Source: a virus
Lineage: Duplodnaviria; Heunggongvirae; Uroviricota; Caudoviricetes
Strand: one strand, 5' to 3'
Length of the DNA: 8,160 bases
Virus record (IMG/VR): IMGVR_UViG_2671180778_000006
In this document: positions 1 to 8,160 of the stretch, piece by piece
Layout: each line of letters opens with the position of its first letter
How positions within the stretch are numbered: the first letter of the stretch is position 1
The notes under the pieces: generated by a model
What the model saw: only the letters and a program-made list of their open reading frames with translations
What the model was told of the DNA's origin: nothing
Database searches by the model: none
Program-made: the position numbers and the translations under genes

Positions 1-131
1 TGAAGACGTAAAGCTTCAGTGATCCAGGTCCGGTGTTTCATACGATAGTGTCCATTAAAAATGATGGACATTATTTTTGTAGAGCCGGAGGAAACAGACC
101 AGACGGTTTAAATGAGCCGGTTACGAAAAAA

Positions 132-344
132 ATGGCAATTGTCGATAAAAAGGGTCTGGAGTACATTCCTAATATCGATCGTATGATCCGTGAGAAAGAA
201 TGTCGGGAGCTAACCACTCTTGCGAACAGCACACGCTGGAAGCTGGAGAAGGAAGGAAAATTTCCTAAGCGGATCAAGATTGGTTCCACTGCTGTTGCAT
301 ATCGTCTTTCAGAAGTGCAGGCATGGATTAGGGGAGAGTGGTAA
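132..344 (+). CDS. alpA: AlpA-family (prophage CP4-57 regulatory protein-like) HTH transcriptional regulator
   Basis: The C-terminal 55 residues (MIREKECRELTTLANSTRWKLEKEGKFPKRIKIGSTAVAYRLSEVQAWI) fit the AlpA/Phage_AlpA helix-turn-helix pattern. Start is ambiguous: ATG at 132 has no clear Shine-Dalgarno; the ORF track extends to a GTG at 33. Confidence 0.8.
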   Translation: MAIVDKKGLEYIPNIDRMIREKECRELTTLANSTRWKLEKEGKFPKRIKIGSTAVAYRLSEVQAWIRGEW

Positions 345-395: not shown

Positions 396-1745
396 TCACT
401 TAAATTCAAATACGTGCGTAGTTGATGAGATTATATAATTAGGTGGTAAGTATTGAACTATTTCTCCATCTTCTTCAAAAATATGAATAACTCTTGGGAA
501 TAATTCAGGGCGTATAGGATTTAATGCCTTCGGATTATGAAACATGTATATTGCTGTACACCATGGTTCTTGATATGAAGGTGCATTGACAAGAGCAGTA
601 AAAGGCATTGGGGTACAGCCTTCATCAGTTTTAATACCTCTAACGATGGATTTGACATTTTTTTGTTCAATCCCTGCCACTACTCCCATCCTATCAAATT
701 TTGGGATGGTGGCATGTGTCGCAAGTAATATGGCTGAGACATTCTCATTTTTATTAGAGCCGAAAAAATTAGATTGTATACTTCGATTTTCAAATAAATG
801 TTGTTCAATTTTACTTCCAGAATCCATATCTACACCATACAGATAGCTTTGTAGTGCTGGCATTGATATACTCATCGAAAATCTGCGTGAGTAATCGTGT
901 AAAGCAATAATGAAAGGCTTTCCTTTTGTATGATCTAGTTCCCAATAGCATAATTTTAAGGGTTCAGGTTTATGCCTAACTTTCTTTAATAGAGTGCGGG
1001 CAAATTTGAATGGCATTTGTTCTTTTACATATCTCTGAAGATCTTCTACTGCCTCATGATCAAGTATCAATTTCTCGGTAGGTTCCTCTTGTTCTGCAAC
1101 TGTGGCAGCTTCTACAGCAATATCAATGCCATTTTTTGAGATAATATAATCAGGTTGAGCATAATCTCTGCATATTACGAAATCCATTTCGTAGAAAACT
1201 GCGTTTAGATAAAGTTCGAATAAGCGAGAGTTAAATGAAGCACTCTGGAAATCTCTGATGAATATTCCATCAGGATCTTTACACCAATAAGCTAACTCTT
1301 GCATAACAATAAATGCAGGATAGTGTTTGGGTTCCTCAAGTAGCATTCTTAGATAAACGTTTTTTTTATGTTCTGGAACTTTGGCTAGGAATATTGAAAA
1401 TGCCGACTCTGATTCGTCACCCTGTATAAAACAACCGTTCTTGTGTAGTGATAATAGCTCTGGTATGGCTTTTTCCATATCAGTAATTAAATCATCTTTA
1501 GATTCACGGGATACAATTACTTTAATCGCTCTAAATTTTTTATCTAAATCCCTACCTAGAAATATAGCGTTGTAATCATTATCTATTTTACAAAAAACAA
1601 TTGTTGCTAAGATCGTGACATCATCCTTTATAAATTTGAACCAACAGATTTCCTCCGAAAAGGTTTTTACGTATGGTGTACGACCATAGAAAAATACATC
1701 AAATTGTTCTTTACTGATTTCTAGCATTTTGTGACTTGTTGTCAT
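396..1745 (-). CDS. Hypothetical 449-aa protein, family not recognised; candidate effector of a cargo (possibly anti-phage) operon
   Basis: Uninterrupted 1350-nt ORF with ATG start and an upstream AAGGA Shine-Dalgarno at 7-nt spacing. It starts 23 nt downstream of the RHH gene on the same strand. Composition is markedly AT-rich compared with the roughly balanced flanking genes. By eye there is no Walker A, HEPN Rx4-6H, HNH or transmembrane signature. Confidence 0.85.
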   Translation of the reverse strand: MTTSHKMLEISKEQFDVFFYGRTPYVKTFSEEICWFKFIKDDVTILATIVFCKIDNDYNAIFLGRDLDKKFRAIKVIVSRESKDDLITDMEKAIPELLSLHKNGCFIQGDESESAFSIFLAKVPEHKKNVYLRMLLEEPKHYPAFIVMQELAYWCKDPDGIFIRDFQSASFNSRLFELYLNAVFYEMDFVICRDYAQPDYIISKNGIDIAVEAATVAEQEEPTEKLILDHEAVEDLQRYVKEQMPFKFARTLLKKVRHKPEPLKLCYWELDHTKGKPFIIALHDYSRRFSMSISMPALQSYLYGVDMDSGSKIEQHLFENRSIQSNFFGSNKNENVSAILLATHATIPKFDRMGVVAGIEQKNVKSIVRGIKTDEGCTPMPFTALVNAPSYQEPWCTAIYMFHNPKALNPIRPELFPRVIHIFEEDGEIVQYLPPNYIISSTTHVFEFK

Positions 1746-1768: not shown

Positions 1769-1963
1769 TCAGCCTTTAGGTGTTATTCCTTGTTTTATTA
1801 GTTCGGCACGAGCCAGTTCTTTTAGCCAGTTACCTAAGCTCATCCCTTCTTTGGCAGCGACATTAACCATTTGTTCTTTTAATTCTGGGTTAATACGGAC
1901 TTGGAATGCTGGTGCTTTACCTGCACCTTTCGGTTGTTTATCACGTTGAATGATAGTTGACAT
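1769..1963 (-). CDS. Ribbon-helix-helix (Arc/MetJ/CopG-like) DNA-binding protein, probable operon regulator
   Basis: 64 aa. FQVRINPELKEQMVNVAAKEGMSLGNWLKELARAEL matches the beta-strand plus two-helix RHH pattern (compare Arc and Mnt repressors). ATG at 1961-1963 on the minus strand with AGGU about 9 nt upstream in the mRNA. First gene of the leftward operon. Confidence 0.7.
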   Translation of the reverse strand: MSTIIQRDKQPKGAGKAPAFQVRINPELKEQMVNVAAKEGMSLGNWLKELARAELIKQGITPKG

Positions 1964-2005
1964 GTGTGTACCTATTGCTTAGTATGATTCTTGATAGGTA
2001 CACAC
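1964..2005 (-). promoter_or_regulatory. Perfect 12-bp inverted repeat (GTGTGTACCTAT, 18-nt spacer, ATAGGTACACAC): candidate operator or RBS-sequestering leader hairpin
   Basis: Left arm 1964-1975 and right arm 1994-2005 are exact reverse complements. The repeat abuts the RHH start codon and contains its Shine-Dalgarno in the transcribed leader. Confidence 0.5.
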
Positions 2006-2023
2006 CTTATCATGTTTTATTGC

Positions 2024-2052
2024 TATATAACAACGCCCTGCAGTGCTCGCAA
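2024..2052 (-). promoter_or_regulatory. Putative sigma70 promoter for the leftward RHH/449-aa operon
   Basis: Read on the minus strand: -35 TTGCGA (plus 2047-2052), 17-nt spacer, -10 TATATA (plus 2024-2029). Each hexamer is only a 4/6 match, so this is weak by-eye evidence. Confidence 0.3.
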
Positions 2053-2298
2053 CACATACAGGGCGTCTAACCACCAACGATAGCAACAGTATCGAGGTAG
2101 CTATGAGAAATCATACCACACACCCGCAAGGGCGGGATTCGCACAACCTGAATAAATACATCTGGCGTTTTATCGCCCTGAGCACCGCACAACCACGCGT
2201 AATACACATCGAGGCCGCCAGCGAACAGGAAGCCCGCCAGCAATCCCCAACTGGCTACGTGATGATATTCGCCGCCCGTATTCGTCAGGAGGTGTGCC

Positions 2299-2484
2299 GT
2301 GCTTAAAACCTTCCGTGTATTTGCCCGAGCTGTTAACCCACTGGGCCACACAATTGGTATCACTCAGAACGTGAAGGCTGTTAATGTTCAGACGGCTATT
2401 GCTGCGGTGAGAAGCGAATCATCAGAATATGGCTTATCACAAGTCATTATTTCAGCAGTGTATGAATTAAAAGAGGTGCATTAA
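2299..2484 (+). CDS. Hypothetical small protein (61 aa), first gene of the rightward replication operon
   Basis: GTG start preceded by a strong AGGAGG Shine-Dalgarno (2287-2292) at 6-nt spacing. Its stop overlaps the next start (TAATG). Confidence 0.5.
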   Translation: MLKTFRVFARAVNPLGHTIGITQNVKAVNVQTAIAAVRSESSEYGLSQVIISAVYELKEVH

Positions 2485-2675
2485 TGCAGGAAATCACATT
2501 ACACGAAGCCGCTGAACGTGCGCACCAGACAGAAATTATTTGCCGCCTTCTTGAGGTATACCCGAACAAAATTACAGATGCTGATATATCCGCGCTGGCG
2601 AGCCTACTGGCGCGCCTTTCGGGAAGTGTCGCTAGTTTCCTGATTGAGGAAGAAAGTAAGCTGGTGGGGGATTAA
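2484..2675 (+). CDS. Hypothetical small protein (63 aa)
   Basis: ATG overlapping the upstream stop; AAGAGGTG Shine-Dalgarno at 2471-2478. Same strand and tight coupling with its neighbours. Confidence 0.5.
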   Translation: MQEITLHEAAERAHQTEIICRLLEVYPNKITDADISALASLLARLSGSVASFLIEEESKLVGD

Positions 2676-2897
2676 ATGAATACAGAACGGGAAGTCTTTT
2701 TTAAATTGTTAGCATGTGCAGAAAGTTCATTAACTTTAAATAATTCAGCAAAAGCAATATTAAATATGTGGCTTGATTGCATAAATGACAATGAAGATGC
2801 AAATATTGCTTATGGCCTGTTGTCACTTATTGATGAATCAGCAGAAAAACTCAATGACGCAATAAATAGTGCCCTGCTATCAAATAAGTCGAGTTAA
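2676..2897 (+). CDS. Hypothetical small protein (73 aa), AT-rich
   Basis: ATG immediately after the upstream TAA; G-rich Shine-Dalgarno upstream. Composition is distinctly more AT-rich than the neighbouring ORFs. Confidence 0.45.
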   Translation: MNTEREVFFKLLACAESSLTLNNSAKAILNMWLDCINDNEDANIAYGLLSLIDESAEKLNDAINSALLSNKSS

Positions 2898-2914
2898 GTC
2901 GAGGAATAAATAAT

Positions 2915-3214
2915 ATGGAAATGAAAAATTCTGGCTTTATTGCCAGCGGCCCCGCTCGGCCTGAATTTATGAACGGCGATATTTACCGCGATAAATACGG
3001 CGGCACGGTAACGATTAAAGGCGTGGCAGAACGGCGCATCACTTACCGCCGTGAGGGGTATAGCTATGACTGCGTGATGCCTGTTTATCAGTTCCGGCGT
3101 GATTTTTCCCTGGTATATGCCGCACCCCGCAGTAAGCCCATCAGCAGGGAAAAAGCGCGGGGAAACATCCAGAAAATGAAAAGCATGATTAACGCATTCA
3201 GGGGCAAAAAATGA
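2915..3214 (+). CDS. Hypothetical protein (99 aa) upstream of the primase
   Basis: ATG with GAGGA Shine-Dalgarno at 2901-2905. Its stop overlaps the primase start (ATGA at 3211-3214), implying translational coupling. Confidence 0.5.
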   Translation: MEMKNSGFIASGPARPEFMNGDIYRDKYGGTVTIKGVAERRITYRREGYSYDCVMPVYQFRRDFSLVYAAPRSKPISREKARGNIQKMKSMINAFRGKK

Positions 3215-4962
3215 AACTGGCACCGAACTTAAAAAAACAGCCACGCGACAGACTGACAGAGGTAATCATCTTTGCAGGTAGTGATGCGTGGAGCCATGCG
3301 AAAGAGTGGCGGGAATGGGCGGGTAAACATATTGCCGCCGACGATGTGCCGCCTGTCGTGCTGGCTGATGAGCAACTGAAAAATATCACCGATTACCGGA
3401 TCATTGATGAAGATCGTCAGTGTGTGCGTGTTTACCGCGCAGGACATATCACAGAGCACAGCATGACGCAGATTGTTACGTTACTGGCTGTGGCTGGAGT
3501 GAAGACCGTACACGAATACGCGGGGATTACTGACACCAGCCCAGTGGATTTATCCGAGCAGTTGCCGCGACTCAAAGAGGAATGCGAGCGTGGGGAAAGT
3601 CTGGTGCTTAATCTTCCGACGAAGCAAAAGGCGCAACTTTCACAGATGGCAGACAGTGAACGTGCACAACTACTTGCCGATCGCTTTGATGGTGTGTGTG
3701 TTCATGCAGAAAGTGAAATCGTCCACGTATGGCGCGGCGGGGTATGGTGTCCGGTCAGCACAATGGAGCTGAGCCGCGAAATGGTGGCGATCTATTCAGA
3801 GCACAGGGCCACGTTCAGCAAACGTGTAATCAATAACGCCGTGGAAGCGTTAAAAGTTATTGCCGACCCCATGGGGGAGCCGTCCGGTGATTTGCTACCG
3901 TTCACTAATGGTGTGCTTAACCTGAAAACGGGGGAATTTTCTCCGCACTCGCCGGAGCACTGGAGCACCACGCACAATGGCATTGAGTACACGCCACCAG
4001 TAGCAGGGGAAAACATCCGCGATAATGCGCCAAATTTCCATAAATGGCTTGAACATGCTGCAAGAAAAGACCCGCGTAAGATGATGCGTATATGTGCCGC
4101 GTTATACATGATTATGGCGAACCGCTACGACTGGCAGATGTTCATTGAGGCCACCGGAGACGGGGGAAGCGGTAAGAGTACATTTACCCATATTGCCACC
4201 CTGCTTGCTGGCAAACAGAACACCGTAAGCGCGGAGATGACATCACTCGATGATGCAGGAGGGCGCGCGCAGGTTGTCGGGAGTCGTCTTATCGTCCTTG
4301 CCGATCAGCCGAAATATACGGGGGAAGGCACGGGCATCAAGAAAATCACGGGAGGCGATCCCGTTGAAATTAACCCGAAATATGAGCAGCGATTCACGAC
4401 GATAATAAGGGCGGTGGTACTGGCAACCAATAACGACCCGATGATCTTTACCGAACGGGCCGGAGGTGTGTCACGCCGTCGGGTGATTTTCCGGTTCGAC
4501 AACATTGTAAGGGAGGACGAAAAAGACAAGGAATTACCGGAAAAGATAGCGGCAGAAATCCCCGTAATTATCCGCCGCTTGCTGGCTAATTTTGCTGCCC
4601 CTGAAAAGGCACGGGCTTTATTACTGGAACAGCGTGACGGTGATGAAGCTCTGGCAATAAAGCAGCAAACGGATCCGGTTGTTGAGCTTTGCGCGGCGCT
4701 GGAGTTTCTGGAGGAAGCTCGTGGGCTAATGATGGGCGGTGGTGGTGACACCGTGAAGTACACGACCAGAAACAGCCTTTACCGTGTCTATATGGCCTTC
4801 ATGGCATACACAGGAAAGGGGAAATGTTTGAGCGTGAATGAGTTCGGAAAGGCTATGAGGTCAGCGGCGAAAGTTTACGGATATGAATATATTACGCGAA
4901 AAGTTAAGGGAGTCACGCAGACCAACGCAACGACTACTGATGATTGCGATGCGTTTTTATAA
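3211..4962 (+). CDS. Phage/plasmid primase-helicase, P4 / D5-like family (satellite pri-rep replication initiator)
   Basis: 583 aa. Walker A GDGGSGKST (4156-4182) and Walker B-like LIVLAD. The LLPFTNGVLNLKTGEFSPHSPEHWST block is typical of the D5-N / P4-type primase C-terminal region. An iteron array follows directly downstream. No primase catalytic motif was recognised in the first ~170 residues. Confidence 0.8.
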   Translation: MKLAPNLKKQPRDRLTEVIIFAGSDAWSHAKEWREWAGKHIAADDVPPVVLADEQLKNITDYRIIDEDRQCVRVYRAGHITEHSMTQIVTLLAVAGVKTVHEYAGITDTSPVDLSEQLPRLKEECERGESLVLNLPTKQKAQLSQMADSERAQLLADRFDGVCVHAESEIVHVWRGGVWCPVSTMELSREMVAIYSEHRATFSKRVINNAVEALKVIADPMGEPSGDLLPFTNGVLNLKTGEFSPHSPEHWSTTHNGIEYTPPVAGENIRDNAPNFHKWLEHAARKDPRKMMRICAALYMIMANRYDWQMFIEATGDGGSGKSTFTHIATLLAGKQNTVSAEMTSLDDAGGRAQVVGSRLIVLADQPKYTGEGTGIKKITGGDPVEINPKYEQRFTTIIRAVVLATNNDPMIFTERAGGVSRRRVIFRFDNIVREDEKDKELPEKIAAEIPVIIRRLLANFAAPEKARALLLEQRDGDEALAIKQQTDPVVELCAALEFLEEARGLMMGGGGDTVKYTTRNSLYRVYMAFMAYTGKGKCLSVNEFGKAMRSAAKVYGYEYITRKVKGVTQTNATTTDDCDAFL

Positions 4963-4975
4963 AAAATGGCAATGG

Positions 4976-5207
4976 TTATCTACCTTGTCTACCTGACTGA
5001 AAGAAAATACTTTTATTTCAATGTATTAATGCAGGTAGATAACTATTTTTCACTGTCTACCTGTTATCTACCTTATCTACCCATTTTTGTAGACAGGTAA
5101 GGAGACGGGTAGAGATGAGGTAGACAGCTATTTGGGGCTGTCTACCTCCCTGAAACCCGCGCCATTACTGGCCTGATAACTAATCAGGTAGACAAGGTAG
5201 ACAAGGT
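4976..5207. repeat. Iteron-type replication origin (about 11 copies of TCTACC / GGTAGA in both orientations, plus an AT-rich stretch)
   Basis: TCTACC at 4979, 4988, 5056, 5067, 5076 and 5141. Reverse-orientation GGTAGA at 5034, 5108, 5119, 5187 and 5196, the last two as a tandem GGTAGACAA pair. AT-rich stretch at 5001-5030. Position immediately 3' of the primase gene. Confidence 0.75.
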
Positions 5208-5251
5208 GGTGGTGCACAAAAAACTTTTTAAACGAGGGGGTAAAAATAAAA

Positions 5252-5509
5252 ATGCACACATCAGGAAAACTGAACAAACATATAAAGCCACATTACCGCG
5301 CCCTTGATATGGCTGAACACTGGCTAAGGGTGGCGATTAAGGCAATAGACCGCAACGCCGGGGAAGGATACGCGAAAGCACATCCCGAACTGATAAGCGC
5401 ATTCATGACAACGGCGGCTGCAAACTTTGCCACGCTGACCGAACGGGAGATTGCTGAAGCGGAGGAAGTGACAACAATCAATATTAAGTCCGGAGAGCAG
5501 GCAGCATGA
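5252..5509 (+). CDS. Hypothetical protein (85 aa), translationally coupled to the SSB-like gene
   Basis: ATG with GAGGGGG upstream. Its stop overlaps the next start (ATGA at 5506-5509). No family recognised. Confidence 0.5.
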   Translation: MHTSGKLNKHIKPHYRALDMAEHWLRVAIKAIDRNAGEGYAKAHPELISAFMTTAAANFATLTEREIAEAEEVTTINIKSGEQAA

Positions 5510-5955
5510 CGGCGCAAATATCAGTTTACGGGCGGTTGGTGGACGACCCGCAGACAAAACAGACCAGCAAGGGCACCCCCATGACGCTGGCGCGTATGGC
5601 GGTATCACTGCCCTGCAGTCAGTCGGATGACGGTCTGGCGACGTTGTGGTTATCTGTCCTGGCGTTTGGCAGACAAGCCGACGCGCTGGCAAAGCATCAC
5701 AAAGGCGAACTCCTGAGCGTGGCGGGTAACATGCAGATGAGCCAGTGGACTGGACAGAACGGCGAAACGCGGCAGGGCTGGCAGGTTATCGCAGACAGCG
5801 TAATCAGTGCGCGATCGGTGCGACCGGGCGGCAAAAAAGGCCAACAGGGGCAGGCTACTGACGCACTGAACAGAGCAAAACAACAGGCAGATCAGCAAGG
5901 AAGCCAGCCACCAGAGGGAGATAATGAGCAATGGGGAGATGATATCCCGTTTTAA
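5506..5955 (+). CDS. Single-stranded DNA-binding protein-like (short OB-fold SSB with C-terminal DDIPF tail)
   Basis: 149 aa. The N-terminal pattern (VYGRLVDDPQ ... WLSVLAFGRQAD ... KGELLSVAGNMQMSQWTGQNGETRQGW) is consistent with the SSB OB fold. A Gly/Gln-rich linker and the terminal GDDIPF match the conserved acidic SSB tip. GGAGAG Shine-Dalgarno upstream. Confidence 0.7.
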   Translation: MTAQISVYGRLVDDPQTKQTSKGTPMTLARMAVSLPCSQSDDGLATLWLSVLAFGRQADALAKHHKGELLSVAGNMQMSQWTGQNGETRQGWQVIADSVISARSVRPGGKKGQQGQATDALNRAKQQADQQGSQPPEGDNEQWGDDIPF

Positions 5956-5973
5956 ATATTGCCAATAAAAAAA

Positions 5974-5997
5974 GCCGGAAAAAATAAATTTTCCGGC
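5974..5997 (-). terminator. Hairpin with a 7-nt U-run on the minus strand (intrinsic terminator oriented leftward)
   Basis: Stem GCCGGAAAA (5974-5982) pairs with TTTTCCGGC (5989-5997), 6-nt loop. An A7 run at 5967-5973 on the plus strand gives a U7 tail in the minus-strand RNA. There is no U-tract on the plus-strand side. Confidence 0.4.
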
Positions 5998-6107
5998 ATG
6001 CTACATAAATCCCGACCAAAGGGAGTGAAGATATTAACACTAATTGTCCGCACTGAAGTTGTCACCCCAAAACTTTATACAACATTGCACTCGGTTGCAT
6101 GTGTTCG

Positions 6108-6136
6108 CATGACAAATATCGGTGATAGCATATATC
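6108..6136 (+). promoter_or_regulatory. Putative sigma70 promoter upstream of the capsid gene
   Basis: -35 ATGACA (6108-6113), 17-nt spacer, -10 TATATC (6131-6136), about 35 nt upstream of the capsid ATG. Weak, by eye only. Confidence 0.25.
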
Positions 6137-6171
6137 CACAATTATTTTTAATGAATGCAAAGAGGATGCGT

Positions 6172-7212
6172 ATGGTTGATTTATATTCGCCTACCCAGCT
6201 TGTACAGGTGGTTAATGCTGTAGATGTACAAAAACAACTAAATGCGTTGTTTACCAGTTTGTTTTTTACTCGCTCGGTAATGTTTGGATCGCGCGATATT
6301 ATTCTTGATACAATCGACGATCCAAATATCCCAATTGCAGCGTTTTGTTCTCCTATGGTGGGTAGTAAAGTTTCACGTGACGAAGGGTACGAATCAAAAA
6401 CAATTCGTCCAGGCTATATGAAGCCGAAAAGCAGCATTGATCCAAATAAGTTAGCTGTGCGCCCTGCTGGTGTATCACCTGAGCAATACAATGCTTTTGG
6501 GGCGCGTAATATTAAAGTTAAACAGGCGATTGTAAATCAAGCTAAAGCTATTCGTGCACGTATTGAATGGCTTGCCGTTCAGGCAATCACAACGGGGAAA
6601 AATATCATTGAGGGCGATGGTATTGAACGTTATGAGCTGGACTGGAATATTAAACCACAAAATATCATCACTCAGTCTGGCGGTACTGAGTGGTCAGGTA
6701 AGGATAAAGAAACTTTTGATCCAAATGATGATATTGAGAGCTACGCAGAATTTAGTGAGGGCGTCACTAATATCATCATTATGGGCGGTAATGTATGGAA
6801 GAAATACCGTTCATTCAGAGCGATAAAAGAGGCTCTGGATACCCGTCGTGGTTCTAATTCCGAACTGGAAACGGCCCTTAAAGACCTTGGTGATTCGGTG
6901 AGTTTTAAAGGATATATGGGCGATGTTGCGATTGTTGTTTACAGCGGGCGTTATACCGACGAGGACGGAACTGAAAAACATTTCCTTGATCCTGATTTGA
7001 TGGTGCTTGGCAATACGGCTCTTCAGGGGATTGTCGCCTATGGCGGTATTCAGGATCCGGAGCTAATCCGAATGGGGCTGACTAAAGCCGAACTTGCACC
7101 GAAAAACTATATTGTGCCTGGTGATCCGGCTATTGAATATGTGCAGACACATTCAGCACCACAGCCAATACCGGCCCGCATCAATCGTTTTGTTACCGTT
7201 CGCATTGGCTAA
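6172..7212 (+). CDS. Major capsid protein, phage lambda gpE-like
   Basis: Near-full-length similarity to lambda gpE as recalled from memory, including ITQSGGTEWS, DTRRGSNSELETA, GDVAIVVYSG and MVLGNT blocks and a matching N-terminus (MVDLYSPTQL against lambda MSMYTTAQLL). Start placed at ATG 6172 with GAGG at 6-nt spacing; the ORF track's upstream extension to 5959 is not supported. Confidence 0.9.
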   Translation: MVDLYSPTQLVQVVNAVDVQKQLNALFTSLFFTRSVMFGSRDIILDTIDDPNIPIAAFCSPMVGSKVSRDEGYESKTIRPGYMKPKSSIDPNKLAVRPAGVSPEQYNAFGARNIKVKQAIVNQAKAIRARIEWLAVQAITTGKNIIEGDGIERYELDWNIKPQNIITQSGGTEWSGKDKETFDPNDDIESYAEFSEGVTNIIIMGGNVWKKYRSFRAIKEALDTRRGSNSELETALKDLGDSVSFKGYMGDVAIVVYSGRYTDEDGTEKHFLDPDLMVLGNTALQGIVAYGGIQDPELIRMGLTKAELAPKNYIVPGDPAIEYVQTHSAPQPIPARINRFVTVRIG

Positions 7213-7221
7213 GGGGGAGCA

Positions 7222-7563
7222 ATGGCTACTCATTACACTGAACTCATGGCTGGCACTGAAGCACTGGTGACTACGCTGGGGATATTTTCAGCTAATAAAG
7301 GGGTAATTCCTGCATTTACGCCACTGATGCAGGAAGATGCAACAGGTGCACTGGTGGTATGGGATGGTTCGAGCGTAGGTAAAGCGGTTTATGTTTCCGC
7401 TGTACAAATCGACACCGCGAAAAAAACACAGGCTCAGGTCTATAAGACAGGTGTCTTAAATGTTGATGCTCTGAACTGGCCTGAGTCTGTAAAAGAACTG
7501 TCAGTAAAGATTGCAGCGTTTGTTGGCTCAGGTATTTCTGTTCAGCCGCTGGCTCGTGTGTAA
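7222..7563 (+). CDS. Head decoration protein, phage lambda gpD-like
   Basis: 113 aa. AFTPLMQEDATGALVVWDGS ... VYKTGVLNVDALNWPE ... AAFVGSGISV aligns with recalled lambda gpD ([20 protein letters not shown] ... FYKSGTFRYEDVLWPE ... TAFAGTAISIV). GGGGGAG Shine-Dalgarno upstream. Confidence 0.8.
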   Translation: MATHYTELMAGTEALVTTLGIFSANKGVIPAFTPLMQEDATGALVVWDGSSVGKAVYVSAVQIDTAKKTQAQVYKTGVLNVDALNWPESVKELSVKIAAFVGSGISVQPLARV

Positions 7564-7574
7564 AGGGGGATACA

Positions 7575-7958
7575 ATGCAAAATGATTACAATGACCTTAA
7601 GCCAATTGCCGAAATGATGTACCCGAATCCAGCTGTAGAGGAATTAAAAGCTATCGCTGACAAAATGTGTTTAAGCGAGCGCCTTGTTGATATGAATCAG
7701 GTGATGGAAATTACAACCCTGAGTCGGCGTACACTGCTAAACCTTGAGGCTAGTGGAGAGTTCCCGGAGCGTGTGCAGGTTACGGAAGGGCGTAAGGCCT
7801 GGTATTTAAGTGAAGTGATCGACTGGATAAATAATATTCCTCGCGCTTCTGAATATTGCCGCGTACCTGTCCCAAAAAAGCCAGATGCGGCGCTATGCCT
7901 CAAGATTGAGCGTGTACGCCGCAATGCACGGGATGGTCGCTATAAGCTGATTGGTTGA
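7575..7958 (+). CDS. AlpA-like HTH domain protein (127 aa); regulator or candidate packaging-specificity factor
   Basis: Residues about 40-95 (MNQVMEITTLSRRTLLNLEASGEFPERVQVTEGRKAWYLSEVIDWI) fit the AlpA-type HTH pattern, with extra N- and C-terminal extensions. AGGGGG Shine-Dalgarno upstream. Sits immediately 5' of the cos site. Confidence 0.6.
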   Translation: MQNDYNDLKPIAEMMYPNPAVEELKAIADKMCLSERLVDMNQVMEITTLSRRTLLNLEASGEFPERVQVTEGRKAWYLSEVIDWINNIPRASEYCRVPVPKKPDAALCLKIERVRRNARDGRYKLIG

Positions 7959-7965
7959 TGAAATT

Positions 7966-8160
7966 AGGGCCCGCTCTGGCTGGCGGGTCCTTTCCGGCGA
8001 TCTGACAGGCTACGGGGCGTCAGGCGCGCGGATTTTCGCTATTTATGAAAATTTTCCGGTTTAAGGCGTTTCCGTTCTTCTTCGTCGTAACTTAATGTTT
8101 TTATTTAAAATACCCCCTGAAAAGAAAGGAAACGACAGGTGCTGAAAGCGAGCTTTTTGG
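7966..8160 (+). other. Lambda-type cos site (cosQ-side flank, cosN at about 8015-8026, cosB R3/I1/R2 region) running off the window end
   Basis: 8027-8160 is nearly identical to my recollection of the lambda left end (CGCGGGTTTTCGCTATTTATGAAAATTTTCCGGTTTAAGGCGTTTCCGTTCTTCTTCGTCATAACTTAATG...GAAAGGAAACGACAGGTGCTGAAAGCGAG). 7971-8014 resembles the lambda right end (...GGGTCCTTTCCGGTGATCCGACAGGTTACG). The 12 nt at the cosN position read GGGCGTCAGGCG against lambda GGGCGGCGACCT. Confidence 0.8.

What the first reader, a model, noticed from the sequence alone, without database searches (positions are those of the whole stretch)
5506..5955. Satellite-encoded short SSB with a conserved DDIPF tail
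The protein has an SSB-like OB-fold pattern and ends in GDDIPF. The acidic C-terminal tip of bacterial SSB is the docking site for many replication and repair proteins. A satellite copy, coupled to an upstream 85-aa ORF and placed just after the origin, could support satellite replication or compete for host SSB partners during helper infection. Function beyond 'SSB-like' is inference.
Basis: partly seen in the sequence, partly recalled or inferred. Interest (0 to 1): 0.4.

Follow-up and report, generated by a model that had tools for sequence, protein, structure and literature searches.

The report
Ordinary SSB gene of an E. coli phage satellite
The ORF is a genuine single-stranded-DNA-binding protein gene in the replication module of a known type of E. 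coli phage satellite (a PICI); it is already annotated in public genomes, so it is real but ordinary, and its role in the satellite is still untested.

Summary
Window 5506-5955 (+) encodes a 149-aa protein ending in GDDIPF. It passes the curated cut-offs of Pfam SSB (57.1 bits, cut-off 26) and TIGR00621 (67.2 bits, cut-off 53.95). It keeps three of the four ssDNA-stacking aromatic residues of E. coli SSB. The structure model has OB-fold topology and retrieves only SSBs. dN/dS in the OB domain is 0.08-0.25.

The start codon overlaps the stop of an 85-aa ORF (ATGA). The gene lies 300 nt downstream of nine AGGTAGAYA iterons, which follow a D5/P4-type primase-helicase gene.

The element is a Gram-negative PICI of the published helper-embedded "11capE" type. 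The model island EcCICFT073 has the same primase, iterons, 85-aa ORF and SSB layout. The two-gene DNA matches 1565 of 5426 complete E. coli genomes. An identical copy is annotated as SSB in RefSeq, and a 2023 paper already lists SSB among PICI replication genes.

The most likely role is an auxiliary replication SSB that coats satellite ssDNA and docks host SSB partners through its IPF tip. It is probably not essential, because rep plus ori was reported to replicate a plasmid.

In the close family IPF is conserved, but DDIPF occurs in only 32 of 112 sequences. Low interest; already known.

The parts
5506..5955 (+). SSB gene (149 aa plus stop)
   Evidence: Pfam SSB 2.1e-15; TIGR00621 67.2 bits against a cut-off of 53.95; phrog_44 1.9e-37. 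A DNA-identical copy in E. coli EC931 is annotated as single-stranded DNA-binding protein WP_001710062.1.
5506..5814 (+). OB-fold domain, residues 1-103
   Evidence: The AF2 model shows strands 9-11, 16-19, 25-36 and 44-54, helix 55-62, and strands 69-82 and 88-103, with block pLDDT 58-82. The top 50 Foldseek PDB hits are all bacterial SSBs. W48, F54 and W81 align with E. coli W54, F60 and W88. dN/dS is 0.08-0.25.
5815..5925 (+). Linker, residues 104-140: Q/G-rich, low-confidence and probably disordered
   Evidence: pLDDT is below 50 from residue 104 to 149. The linker is 37 residues against about 56 in E. coli SSB and has no PxxP motif. Its N-terminal part (RPGGKKGQQGQATDAL) is conserved among close relatives, and the rest varies in length.
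5926..5952 (+). C-terminal tip, residues 141-149 (EQWGDDIPF)
   Evidence: It aligns with E. coli SSB ...MDFDDDIPF. Among close family members, IPF ends 101 of 112 sequences, Asp at -5 occurs in 110 of 112, and an aromatic residue at -7 occurs in 107 of 111.
5252..5509 (+). 85-aa ORF translationally coupled to the SSB gene (ATGA overlap); function unknown
   Evidence: phrog_1231 (unknown function) 3.2e-48. There are no Pfam, NCBIfam or PADLOC hits. 164 homologues were found; the 120 listed are 64-100% identical and the named ones are Escherichia, Shigella or Citrobacter. AF2 gives a two-helix hairpin at pLDDT 66 with no structural relatives. EcCICFT073 has the same overlap with its SSB.
4977..5203 (.). 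Iteron array, the putative satellite replication origin
   Evidence: Nine exact AGGTAGAYA copies in both orientations against 0.04 expected, with inverted sets. The same iteron occurs downstream of pri in EcCICFT073, where an ori immediately 3' of the rep gene was tested experimentally (PMC6092414).
3211..4962 (+). Primase-helicase (Pri-Rep) gene of the satellite
   Evidence: Pfam D5_N 1.3e-15 and DUF5906 3.9e-10, with a weaker Pox_D5 match; phrog_864 DNA primase 5.5e-161. It is 79% identical to the EcCICFT073 primase.
5974..5997 (-). Hairpin just downstream of the SSB stop; terminator-like only on the minus strand
   Evidence: A 9-bp stem followed by TTTTTTTATT when read on the minus strand. 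On the plus strand it has no T-run. Its role was not established.

Best explanation
The gene encodes a true bacterial-type SSB: an N-terminal OB fold, a short flexible linker and a C-terminal ...DDIPF tip. It belongs to the replication module of a Gram-negative phage-inducible chromosomal island (PICI), here of the helper-embedded '11capE' type.

Proposed mechanism. When the helper induces the island, the rightward alpA-controlled operon is transcribed. The primase-helicase opens the iteron origin just upstream. The SSB, translated together with the 85-aa ORF, coats the exposed satellite ssDNA. Its IPF tip docks host SSB-interacting proteins, as the host SSB tip does. The satellite copy adds to the host SSB pool at a time when helper and satellite replicate together.

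What is shown: SSB family membership, OB-fold topology, tip conservation, purifying selection, and the position next to the replicase and origin across many islands.

What is inferred: ssDNA binding, tetramer formation, partner docking, the timing of expression, and the benefit to satellite replication. The role is probably auxiliary rather than essential.
For: - Family membership is above curated cut-offs, and the only PDB sequence and fold matches are SSBs.
- The secondary structure order (strands, helix 55-62, strands) fits an OB fold.
- Equivalents of E. coli W54, F60 and W88 are conserved.
- dN/dS in the OB domain is 0.08-0.25 against seven relatives.
- In 30 of 33 Enterobacterales loci the largest ORF within 4.5 kb upstream of the SSB is a primase-helicase. 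Two architectures occur: Toprim_3 + Zn_Ribbon_Prim + DUF927, or D5_N + DUF5906 + Pox_D5. A third island pairs the SSB with a RepA-family helicase.
- The iteron origin lies immediately upstream.
- The model island EcCICFT073 has the same primase, iterons, 85-aa ORF and SSB layout, and its ori lies 3' of the rep gene (PMC6092414).
- PMC10111431 places SSB with Primase and DUF5906 in the PICI replication category because the genes colocalise with mapped origins.
- From my own knowledge (not checked here): the tip of E. coli SSB docks the chi subunit of Pol III, PriA, RecQ, ExoI and RecG; in-vitro replication of satellite P4, which uses a related type of primase-helicase, needs host SSB and Pol III holoenzyme; several plasmid and phage SSBs complement E. 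coli ssb mutants.
Against: - No experiment on this protein or any PICI SSB was found in the held literature.
- For EcCICFT073 the rep gene plus ori was reported to replicate a plasmid in DH5alpha, so host SSB can serve.
- The tip is less acidic than the host's in most family members: one acidic residue in the last six in 62 of 111 sequences, against three in host SSB. This could weaken docking to host partners.
- The W40-bearing loop of E. coli SSB is shortened, and H55, mutated to Tyr in the ssb-1 allele (own knowledge), is Leu here. Binding mode and oligomeric state may therefore differ.
- The AF2 model is only moderate, with mean pLDDT 60.6 and TM about 0.5 to SSB structures.
Confidence: 0.65

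Rival explanations
1. The satellite SSB is a dedicated partner of the satellite's own primase-helicase. Its tail and linker would bind the PICI replicase, as the acidic tail of T7 gp2.5 binds the T7 polymerase and helicase-primase, rather than mainly recruiting host proteins.
For: The SSB is tightly syntenic with a primase-helicase in 30 of 33 loci. The tip diverges from the host DDDIPF in most members. The T7 gp2.5 precedent is from my own knowledge.
Against: Closely related SSBs pair with three unrelated replicase architectures. The same tail, for example PPFDDEAPF, occurs with both the D5-type replicase (L016, L027) and the Toprim/DUF927 type (L013). There is thus no sign of tail-replicase co-variation.
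Confidence: 0.13
2. The protein acts as a competitor or decoy. It would titrate host SSB partners or form mixed tetramers with host SSB, biasing replication and repair away from the helper phage or host and so contributing to interference.
For: The IPF tip could occupy the same pockets as host SSB. The reduced acidity of the tip and the different linker, which has no PxxP motif, could make a poor recruiter that still occupies ssDNA. EcCICFT073 interferes with lambda, and the capsid and decoration genes are not responsible (PMC6092414).
Against: No evidence links the SSB to interference. The gene sits in the replication module, not among the late or interference genes. The OB domain is only 23% identical to host SSB, which makes mixed tetramers less likely.
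Confidence: 0.1
3. The protein interacts with anti-phage defence. It might shield satellite ssDNA, blunt SSB- or ssDNA-sensing defence systems, or act as a trigger for them.
For: Phage SSBs are reported triggers of Retron-Eco8, Hna, AbpAB and DRT10 (titles and abstracts listed). This island also carries a defence gene, PD-T7-1, so defence interplay is plausible for the element as a whole.
Against: PADLOC has no match to the SSB or the 85-aa ORF. The SSB is in the conserved replication block, while the defence cargo sits in a separate variable slot. Nothing specific to this protein supports the idea.
Confidence: 0.07
4. The gene is a decaying or functionless passenger inherited from an ancestral phage or plasmid replication module.
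For: Rep plus ori was reported to suffice for plasmid replication. A few truncated copies exist, for example L018 (126 aa), L042 (114 aa) and partial proteins.
Against: dN/dS is 0.08-0.25. The reading frame is intact and the tip conserved in 111 of 112 close homologues. The two-gene DNA matches 1565 of 5426 complete E. coli genomes and relatives occur in about 20 Enterobacterales genera.
Confidence: 0.03

Closest known systems
SSB of the model Gram-negative PICI EcCICFT073 (WP_000126698.1, NC_004431.1 1384538-1384948)
   Same: It occupies the same place in the same kind of element: DUF4222, primase, TGTCTACCT/AGGTAGAYA iterons, an 85-aa ORF (80% identical) whose stop overlaps the SSB start by 4 nt, then the SSB (68% identical, tail ...YGDDIPF), followed by lambda-E-type capsid and D-type decoration genes.
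   Different: It is 136 aa, with a shorter linker. It is followed by perC, which is absent here. EcCICFT073 lies next to phoQ/phoP in the chromosome, whereas the near-identical relatives of the window are embedded in a prophage capsid gene.
Helper-embedded PICI '11capE' (PMC10111431)
   Same: Window 1817-8160 is about 97.6-97.8% identical to islands with the gene order int, alpA, cargo, Icd-like, DUF4222, primase, 85-aa ORF, SSB, capsid, decoration, alpA-like. These islands split the major capsid gene of a lambdoid prophage, which is the configuration that paper describes. The paper lists SSB as a PICI replication family.
   Different: The window carries different cargo at 345-1816 (PD-T7-1 instead of DUF2971 and SWIM). 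Its first 124 bases do not match those islands. Its own integration site cannot be seen in the window.
E. coli chromosomal SSB (PDB 1EQQ/1EYG; NCBIfam NF006533)
   Same: It has an OB fold, equivalents of W54, F60 and W88, a disordered linker and a tip ending ...DDIPF.
   Different: Identity over the OB domain is only 23%. It scores 21.3 bits against the 260-bit cut-off of NF006533. The loop carrying W40 is shortened and H55 is Leu. The linker is 37 residues rather than about 56, contains charged residues and has no PxxP motif. The tip has two rather than three Asp before IPF.
Conjugative-plasmid SSBs (F-type; NCBIfam NF010292 / PRK13732)
   Same: It is an SSB carried by a mobile element that keeps the host-type C-terminal tip. 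A role as an extra SSB supply for the element's own DNA transactions is plausible. Complementation of E. coli ssb mutants by plasmid SSBs is from my own knowledge.
   Different: It is not a member: 19.3 bits against a 265-bit cut-off. Plasmid SSBs sit in the leading region and act on transferred ssDNA, whereas this gene sits beside a primase-helicase and an iteron origin.
Phage-encoded SSBs (PHROG 44)
   Same: It matches phrog_44 at 1.9e-37. BFVD fold hits are phage SSBs.
   Different: No close phage relative was found. The best tblastn identity in 50,697 phage records is 33%, so this lineage is specific to satellites and islands rather than a recent copy from a known helper phage.

Membership tests
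Bacterial SSB family (Pfam PF00436 / TIGR00621) | Profile match above the curated cut-off | tested here: met
   PF00436 57.1 bits (cut-off 26); TIGR00621 67.2 bits (cut-off 53.95).
Bacterial SSB family (Pfam PF00436 / TIGR00621) | OB fold (five-stranded barrel with a helix between strands 3 and 4) | tested here: met
   The AF2 model has the order strands, helix 55-62, strands. Confidence is moderate, with block pLDDT 58-82 across the OB domain. All top 50 PDB fold hits are SSBs, with E down to 2.3e-4 and TM about 0.5 normalised to the target.
Bacterial SSB family (Pfam PF00436 / TIGR00621) | Aromatic ssDNA-stacking residues (E. coli W40, W54, F60, W88) | tested here: inconclusive
   W48, F54 and W81 align with W54, F60 and W88; F54 and W81 are invariant and W48 nearly invariant in the family. 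The W40 position is lost in a shortened loop.
Bacterial SSB family (Pfam PF00436 / TIGR00621) | Disordered linker followed by an acidic tip ending in (D)IPF | tested here: met
   pLDDT is below 50 for residues 104-149. The tail is WGDDIPF, and IPF ends 101 of 112 close homologues.
Bacterial SSB family (Pfam PF00436 / TIGR00621) | Homotetramer (or homodimer) that binds ssDNA | not testable with these tools
   No multimer prediction or biochemistry was available. The H55 equivalent is Leu49.
Enterobacterial housekeeping SSB (NCBIfam NF006533) | Score above the subfamily cut-off | tested here: not met
   21.3 bits against 260; 23% identity to E. coli SSB.
Plasmid SSB (NCBIfam NF010292 / PRK13732) | Score above the subfamily cut-off | tested here: not met
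   19.3 bits against 265.
Gram-negative PICI (Fillol-Salom 2018, PMC6092414) | An alpA regulator and a pri/rep gene followed by an iteron origin, in one rightward operon | tested here: met
   AlpA-family ORFs at 33-344 and 7575-7958, the primase at 3211-4962 and nine iterons at 4977-5203; the AlpA-family, DUF4222, primase, SSB, capsid and decoration genes are all on the + strand.
Gram-negative PICI (Fillol-Salom 2018, PMC6092414) | Own integrase and a specific attachment site | tested here: inconclusive
   The integrase lies outside the window. Near-identical islands have a tyrosine integrase immediately upstream of alpA. Window bases 1-124 do not match them.
Gram-negative PICI (Fillol-Salom 2018, PMC6092414) | Helper-phage-dependent induction and packaging | not testable with these tools
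   This was shown experimentally for EcCICFT073, not for this island.
Helper-embedded PICI, capE site (PMC10111431) | Island inserted within, and co-oriented with, the major capsid gene of a lambdoid prophage | tested here: inconclusive
   This holds for the 97.6-97.8% identical islands in strains 10 and EC931, where the split capsid pseudogene flanks the island. The flanks of the window's own island are not in the window.

The most novel reading that the evidence does not exclude
The satellite SSB, perhaps together with its coupled 85-aa helical partner, is not just a spare replication SSB. It could be a specialised factor whose weakened acidic tip and altered linker change which host SSB partners reach ssDNA. 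That could favour satellite over helper replication, or modulate SSB-sensing defences such as Retron-Eco8, AbpAB or Hna.
Probability: 0.1. Interest if true: 0.5.

Novelty: already known. Interest (0 to 1): 0.15.

Why it matters
The practical importance is modest. PICIs are widespread vehicles of virulence and defence genes in Enterobacterales. Their replication module is usually described as pri-rep plus ori, but this SSB lineage sits next to the replicase in most of the islands sampled here. The two-gene DNA also matches about 29% of complete E. coli genomes. Whether the SSB raises satellite copy number, lets the island cope with limiting host SSB during helper induction, or affects helper interference has not been tested. 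A simple deletion in EcCICFT073 would settle it. Nothing here challenges current understanding.

Tried and rejected
- Rfam scan of the whole window at E<=1 found nothing, including no C4/isrK-type RNAs near the SSB.
- The sigma-70 promoter scan of 4800-6300 found no sites. No separate promoter for the 85-aa ORF and SSB pair can be proposed, and co-transcription with the primase is assumed.
- The 85-aa ORF gave no lead: no Pfam, NCBIfam or PADLOC hit, only an unknown PHROG, a narrow family, a helical-hairpin model and no fold relatives. Small ORFs upstream of the SSB in more distant islands are unrelated to it, and many are probably spurious.
- I looked for tail-replicase co-variation to support a cognate SSB-replicase interaction. 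The same tails occur with different replicase types, so there is no support.
- I looked for a close phage or plasmid source of the gene. Phage records reach at most 33% identity. The plasmid collection holds 10 records at 60-80% identity, including some small 22-39 kb records, but the protein is not the F-type plasmid SSB.
- The AF2 model of the SSB is only moderate (pLDDT 60.6). I use its topology and the identity of its fold hits, not its coordinates.
- The exhaustive representative-protein search (search of protein representatives) was not used, because the family assignment was already unambiguous.

Full report

Yes. Window 5506-5955 on the + strand is an open reading frame of 149 codons plus TAA. 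The protein ends ...NEQWGDDIPF. A GGAG lies 10 nt upstream of the ATG. The ATG overlaps the TGA stop of the preceding 85-codon ORF (5252-5509) as ATGA, the usual sign of translational coupling.

Several searches identify the protein as an SSB:
- Pfam SSB (PF00436): E=2.1e-15, 57.1 bits against a curated cut-off of 26, residues 4-99.
- NCBIfam TIGR00621 'ssb': 67.2 bits against 53.95, residues 4-149, so the match includes the tail.
- PHROG 44 (SSB): 1.9e-37.
- A sequence search of the PDB returned 25 matches, all SSBs, the best at 4.4e-11.

Against E. coli SSB the OB domain is 23% identical. E. coli W54, F60 and W88 align with W48, F54 and W81; F54 and W81 are invariant and W48 nearly invariant in the family. 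The loop that carries W40 is shortened, and H55 is Leu49.

An AlphaFold2 model built on 33 family sequences is of moderate quality. Mean pLDDT is 60.6, with 58-82 across the OB domain and below 50 for residues 104-149. It has the OB order of strands, helix 55-62, strands. Its top 50 Foldseek hits in the PDB are all bacterial SSBs (E down to 2.3e-4), and its top hits among viral models are phage SSBs.

Pairwise dN/dS for the OB domain against seven relatives is 0.08-0.25, so the gene is under purifying selection.

**2. Surroundings**

Upstream lies a 583-aa primase-helicase gene (3211-4962). It matches D5_N and DUF5906, more weakly Pox_D5, and phrog_864 'DNA primase' at 5.5e-161.

Between its stop and the 85-aa ORF there are nine exact copies of AGGTAGAYA in both orientations at 4977-5203. 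Chance expectation is 0.04, and none of 200 shuffles reached nine. They are arranged as inverted sets.

Downstream lie a lambda-E-type major capsid gene (6172-7212), a lambda-D-type decoration gene (7222-7563) and a second AlpA-family gene.

Nothing in Rfam matches the window. No sigma-70-like promoter was found between the primase and the capsid gene.

**3. What the element is**

Window 1817-8160 is about 97.6-97.8% identical to about 11-kb islands in E. coli strains 10 and EC931. Those islands carry a tyrosine integrase, alpA, cargo genes, an Icd-like gene, DUF4222, the primase, the 85-aa ORF, the SSB, capsid and decoration genes, and an alpA-like gene, nearly all in one direction.

They sit inside the major capsid gene of a lambdoid prophage, whose N- and C-terminal fragments flank the island. 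This is the helper-embedded PICI '11capE' configuration described in PMC10111431.

The model Gram-negative PICI EcCICFT073 has the same replication block: DUF4222, primase (79% identical), the same iteron sequence, an 85-aa ORF (80% identical) whose stop overlaps the start of an SSB (68% identical, 136 aa, tail YGDDIPF), then perC, capsid and decoration genes.

**4. Distribution**

- The DNA of the 85-aa ORF plus SSB matches 1565 of 5426 complete E. coli genomes. An identical copy in strain EC931 is annotated as single-stranded DNA-binding protein WP_001710062.1.
- The protein search found 628 relatives. The 120 listed are 64-96% identical, and the named ones are called SSB.
- In species-representative genomes, relatives of about 48-75% identity occur in about 20 Enterobacterales genera.
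- In 30 of 33 such loci the largest ORF within 4.5 kb upstream of the SSB is a primase-helicase of one of two architectures. A third island, in E. coli clone D i2, pairs the SSB with a RepA-family helicase.
- The SSB therefore travels with the replicase and origin whatever the replicase type.
- The 85-aa ORF does not travel as far. Its family has 164 members; the 120 listed are 64-100% identical, and the named ones are Escherichia, Shigella or Citrobacter. It is absent upstream of the SSB in more distant islands.
- No close relative exists in the phage collection, where identity is at most 33%. The protein fails the cut-offs for both the plasmid-SSB and the enterobacterial housekeeping-SSB subfamilies.

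**5. The tail**

Among 112 close homologues of 130-155 aa:
- 111 end in F, 107 in PF and 101 in IPF, but only 32 end in DDIPF.
- Asp at position -5 occurs in 110 of 112.
- An aromatic residue at -7 occurs in 107 of 111.
- The last six residues hold one acidic residue in 62 sequences, two in 33 (as here) and three in 16 (as in host SSB).

More distant members end in forms such as PPFDDEAPF, PYDDQIPF or YDDDF. The docking end is thus conserved, but its acidity is relaxed.

The linker is 37 residues against about 56 in E. coli SSB. It contains charged residues and has no PxxP motif.

**6. Most likely mechanism**

This is a replication-module SSB. After induction, the primase-helicase opens the iteron origin. 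The SSB coats the satellite's ssDNA, and its IPF tip docks host SSB-interacting proteins.

Shown here: family membership, fold topology, conserved tip, purifying selection and synteny with the replicase and origin.

Inferred: ssDNA binding, oligomeric state, partner docking and benefit to the satellite.

The role is probably auxiliary. For EcCICFT073, the rep gene plus ori was reported to let a temperature-sensitive plasmid replicate in DH5alpha (PMC6092414). I did not find any experiment on a PICI SSB in the held literature.

The roles of the SSB tip in E. coli, the host-protein requirements of P4 replication in vitro, and complementation of ssb mutants by plasmid and phage SSBs are cited from my own knowledge, not from tool results.

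**7. Rivals**

- A cognate partner of the PICI replicase. Synteny favours this, but the same SSB tails occur with different replicase types.
There is no supporting evidence, and the gene lies in the replication block.
- A role in defence interplay. Phage SSBs trigger several defence systems, but nothing ties this protein to them and PADLOC is silent.
- A functionless passenger. dN/dS and distribution contradict this.

**8. Novelty and verdict**

The protein is annotated as SSB in RefSeq. The same gene is present in the model PICI. PMC10111431 already assigns the SSB family to the PICI replication category.

The finding is correct but already known. What remains open is the untested function, which a deletion in EcCICFT073 would address. 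Interest is low.

Noticed in passing
window 396-1745 (- strand): A 449-aa ORF matches the anti-phage defence protein PD-T7-1 (PADLOC 1.3e-153, near full length) and phrog_8571. It lies in a 1.5-kb cargo slot (345-1816) that is replaced by DUF2971 and SWIM-zinc-finger genes in the otherwise 97.6-97.8% identical E. coli islands. This satellite therefore carries a defence gene as swappable cargo.
   Followed up: partly
L001:10354-22548 and L002:4293-16651 (relatives of the window): The near-identical islands sit inside the major capsid (E-type) gene of a lambdoid prophage, splitting it into two pseudogene fragments, while carrying their own capsid and decoration genes. This is the published helper-embedded PICI '11capE' configuration.
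   Followed up: yes
window 1-124: The first 124 bases match none of the listed best E. coli hits (all start at query base 125) and do not align to the near-identical islands, which align only from base 125. This may be the 3' end of a different integrase gene, which would suggest a different integration site for this particular island.
   Followed up: no
window 5956-6171, hairpin at 5974-5997: A 216-nt non-coding gap separates the SSB and capsid genes. EcCICFT073 has perC and a small ORF between its SSB and capsid genes. The gap holds a 9-bp GC-rich hairpin that looks like an intrinsic terminator only when read on the minus strand (T-run on that side), although no minus-strand gene lies nearby. 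Rfam finds nothing.
   Followed up: partly
window 5252-5509: The 85-aa ORF coupled to the SSB belongs to a narrow family found in Escherichia, Shigella and Citrobacter. Its C-terminal half is highly conserved (HPELISAFMTTAAANFATLTEREIAEAE). It is predicted as a two-helix hairpin with no detectable relatives of known function. In some O111 genomes only this ORF's DNA was matched, and in a few other genomes only the SSB's.
   Followed up: partly
window 33-344 and 7575-7958: There are two AlpA-family genes, one at each end of the window. The downstream one is longer (127 aa) and matches phrog_2790 at 1.1e-49. It is unclear why the island keeps two.
   Followed up: no
window 1769-1963 (- strand): A 64-aa ORF with weak Arc-like repressor and HicB-like matches lies directly upstream (in its transcription direction) of the PD-T7-1 gene on the same strand. 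It could be a regulator or a partner of the defence gene.
   Followed up: no
plasmid records H73-H84 (e.g. CP088587.1, NZ_CP033626.1, Sodalis NC_007184.1): Relatives of this SSB (55-68% identical) occur on small records of 22-39 kb filed as plasmids, including in Sodalis glossinidius. They could be excised satellites, phage-plasmids or misassigned contigs.
   Followed up: no
L013, L036, L040, L042: SSB relatives of 48-61% identity appear on contigs labelled Chryseobacterium, Paceibacterota and Sphingomonadales. These are probably contamination or mis-binning of Enterobacterales DNA, but this was not checked.
   Followed up: no
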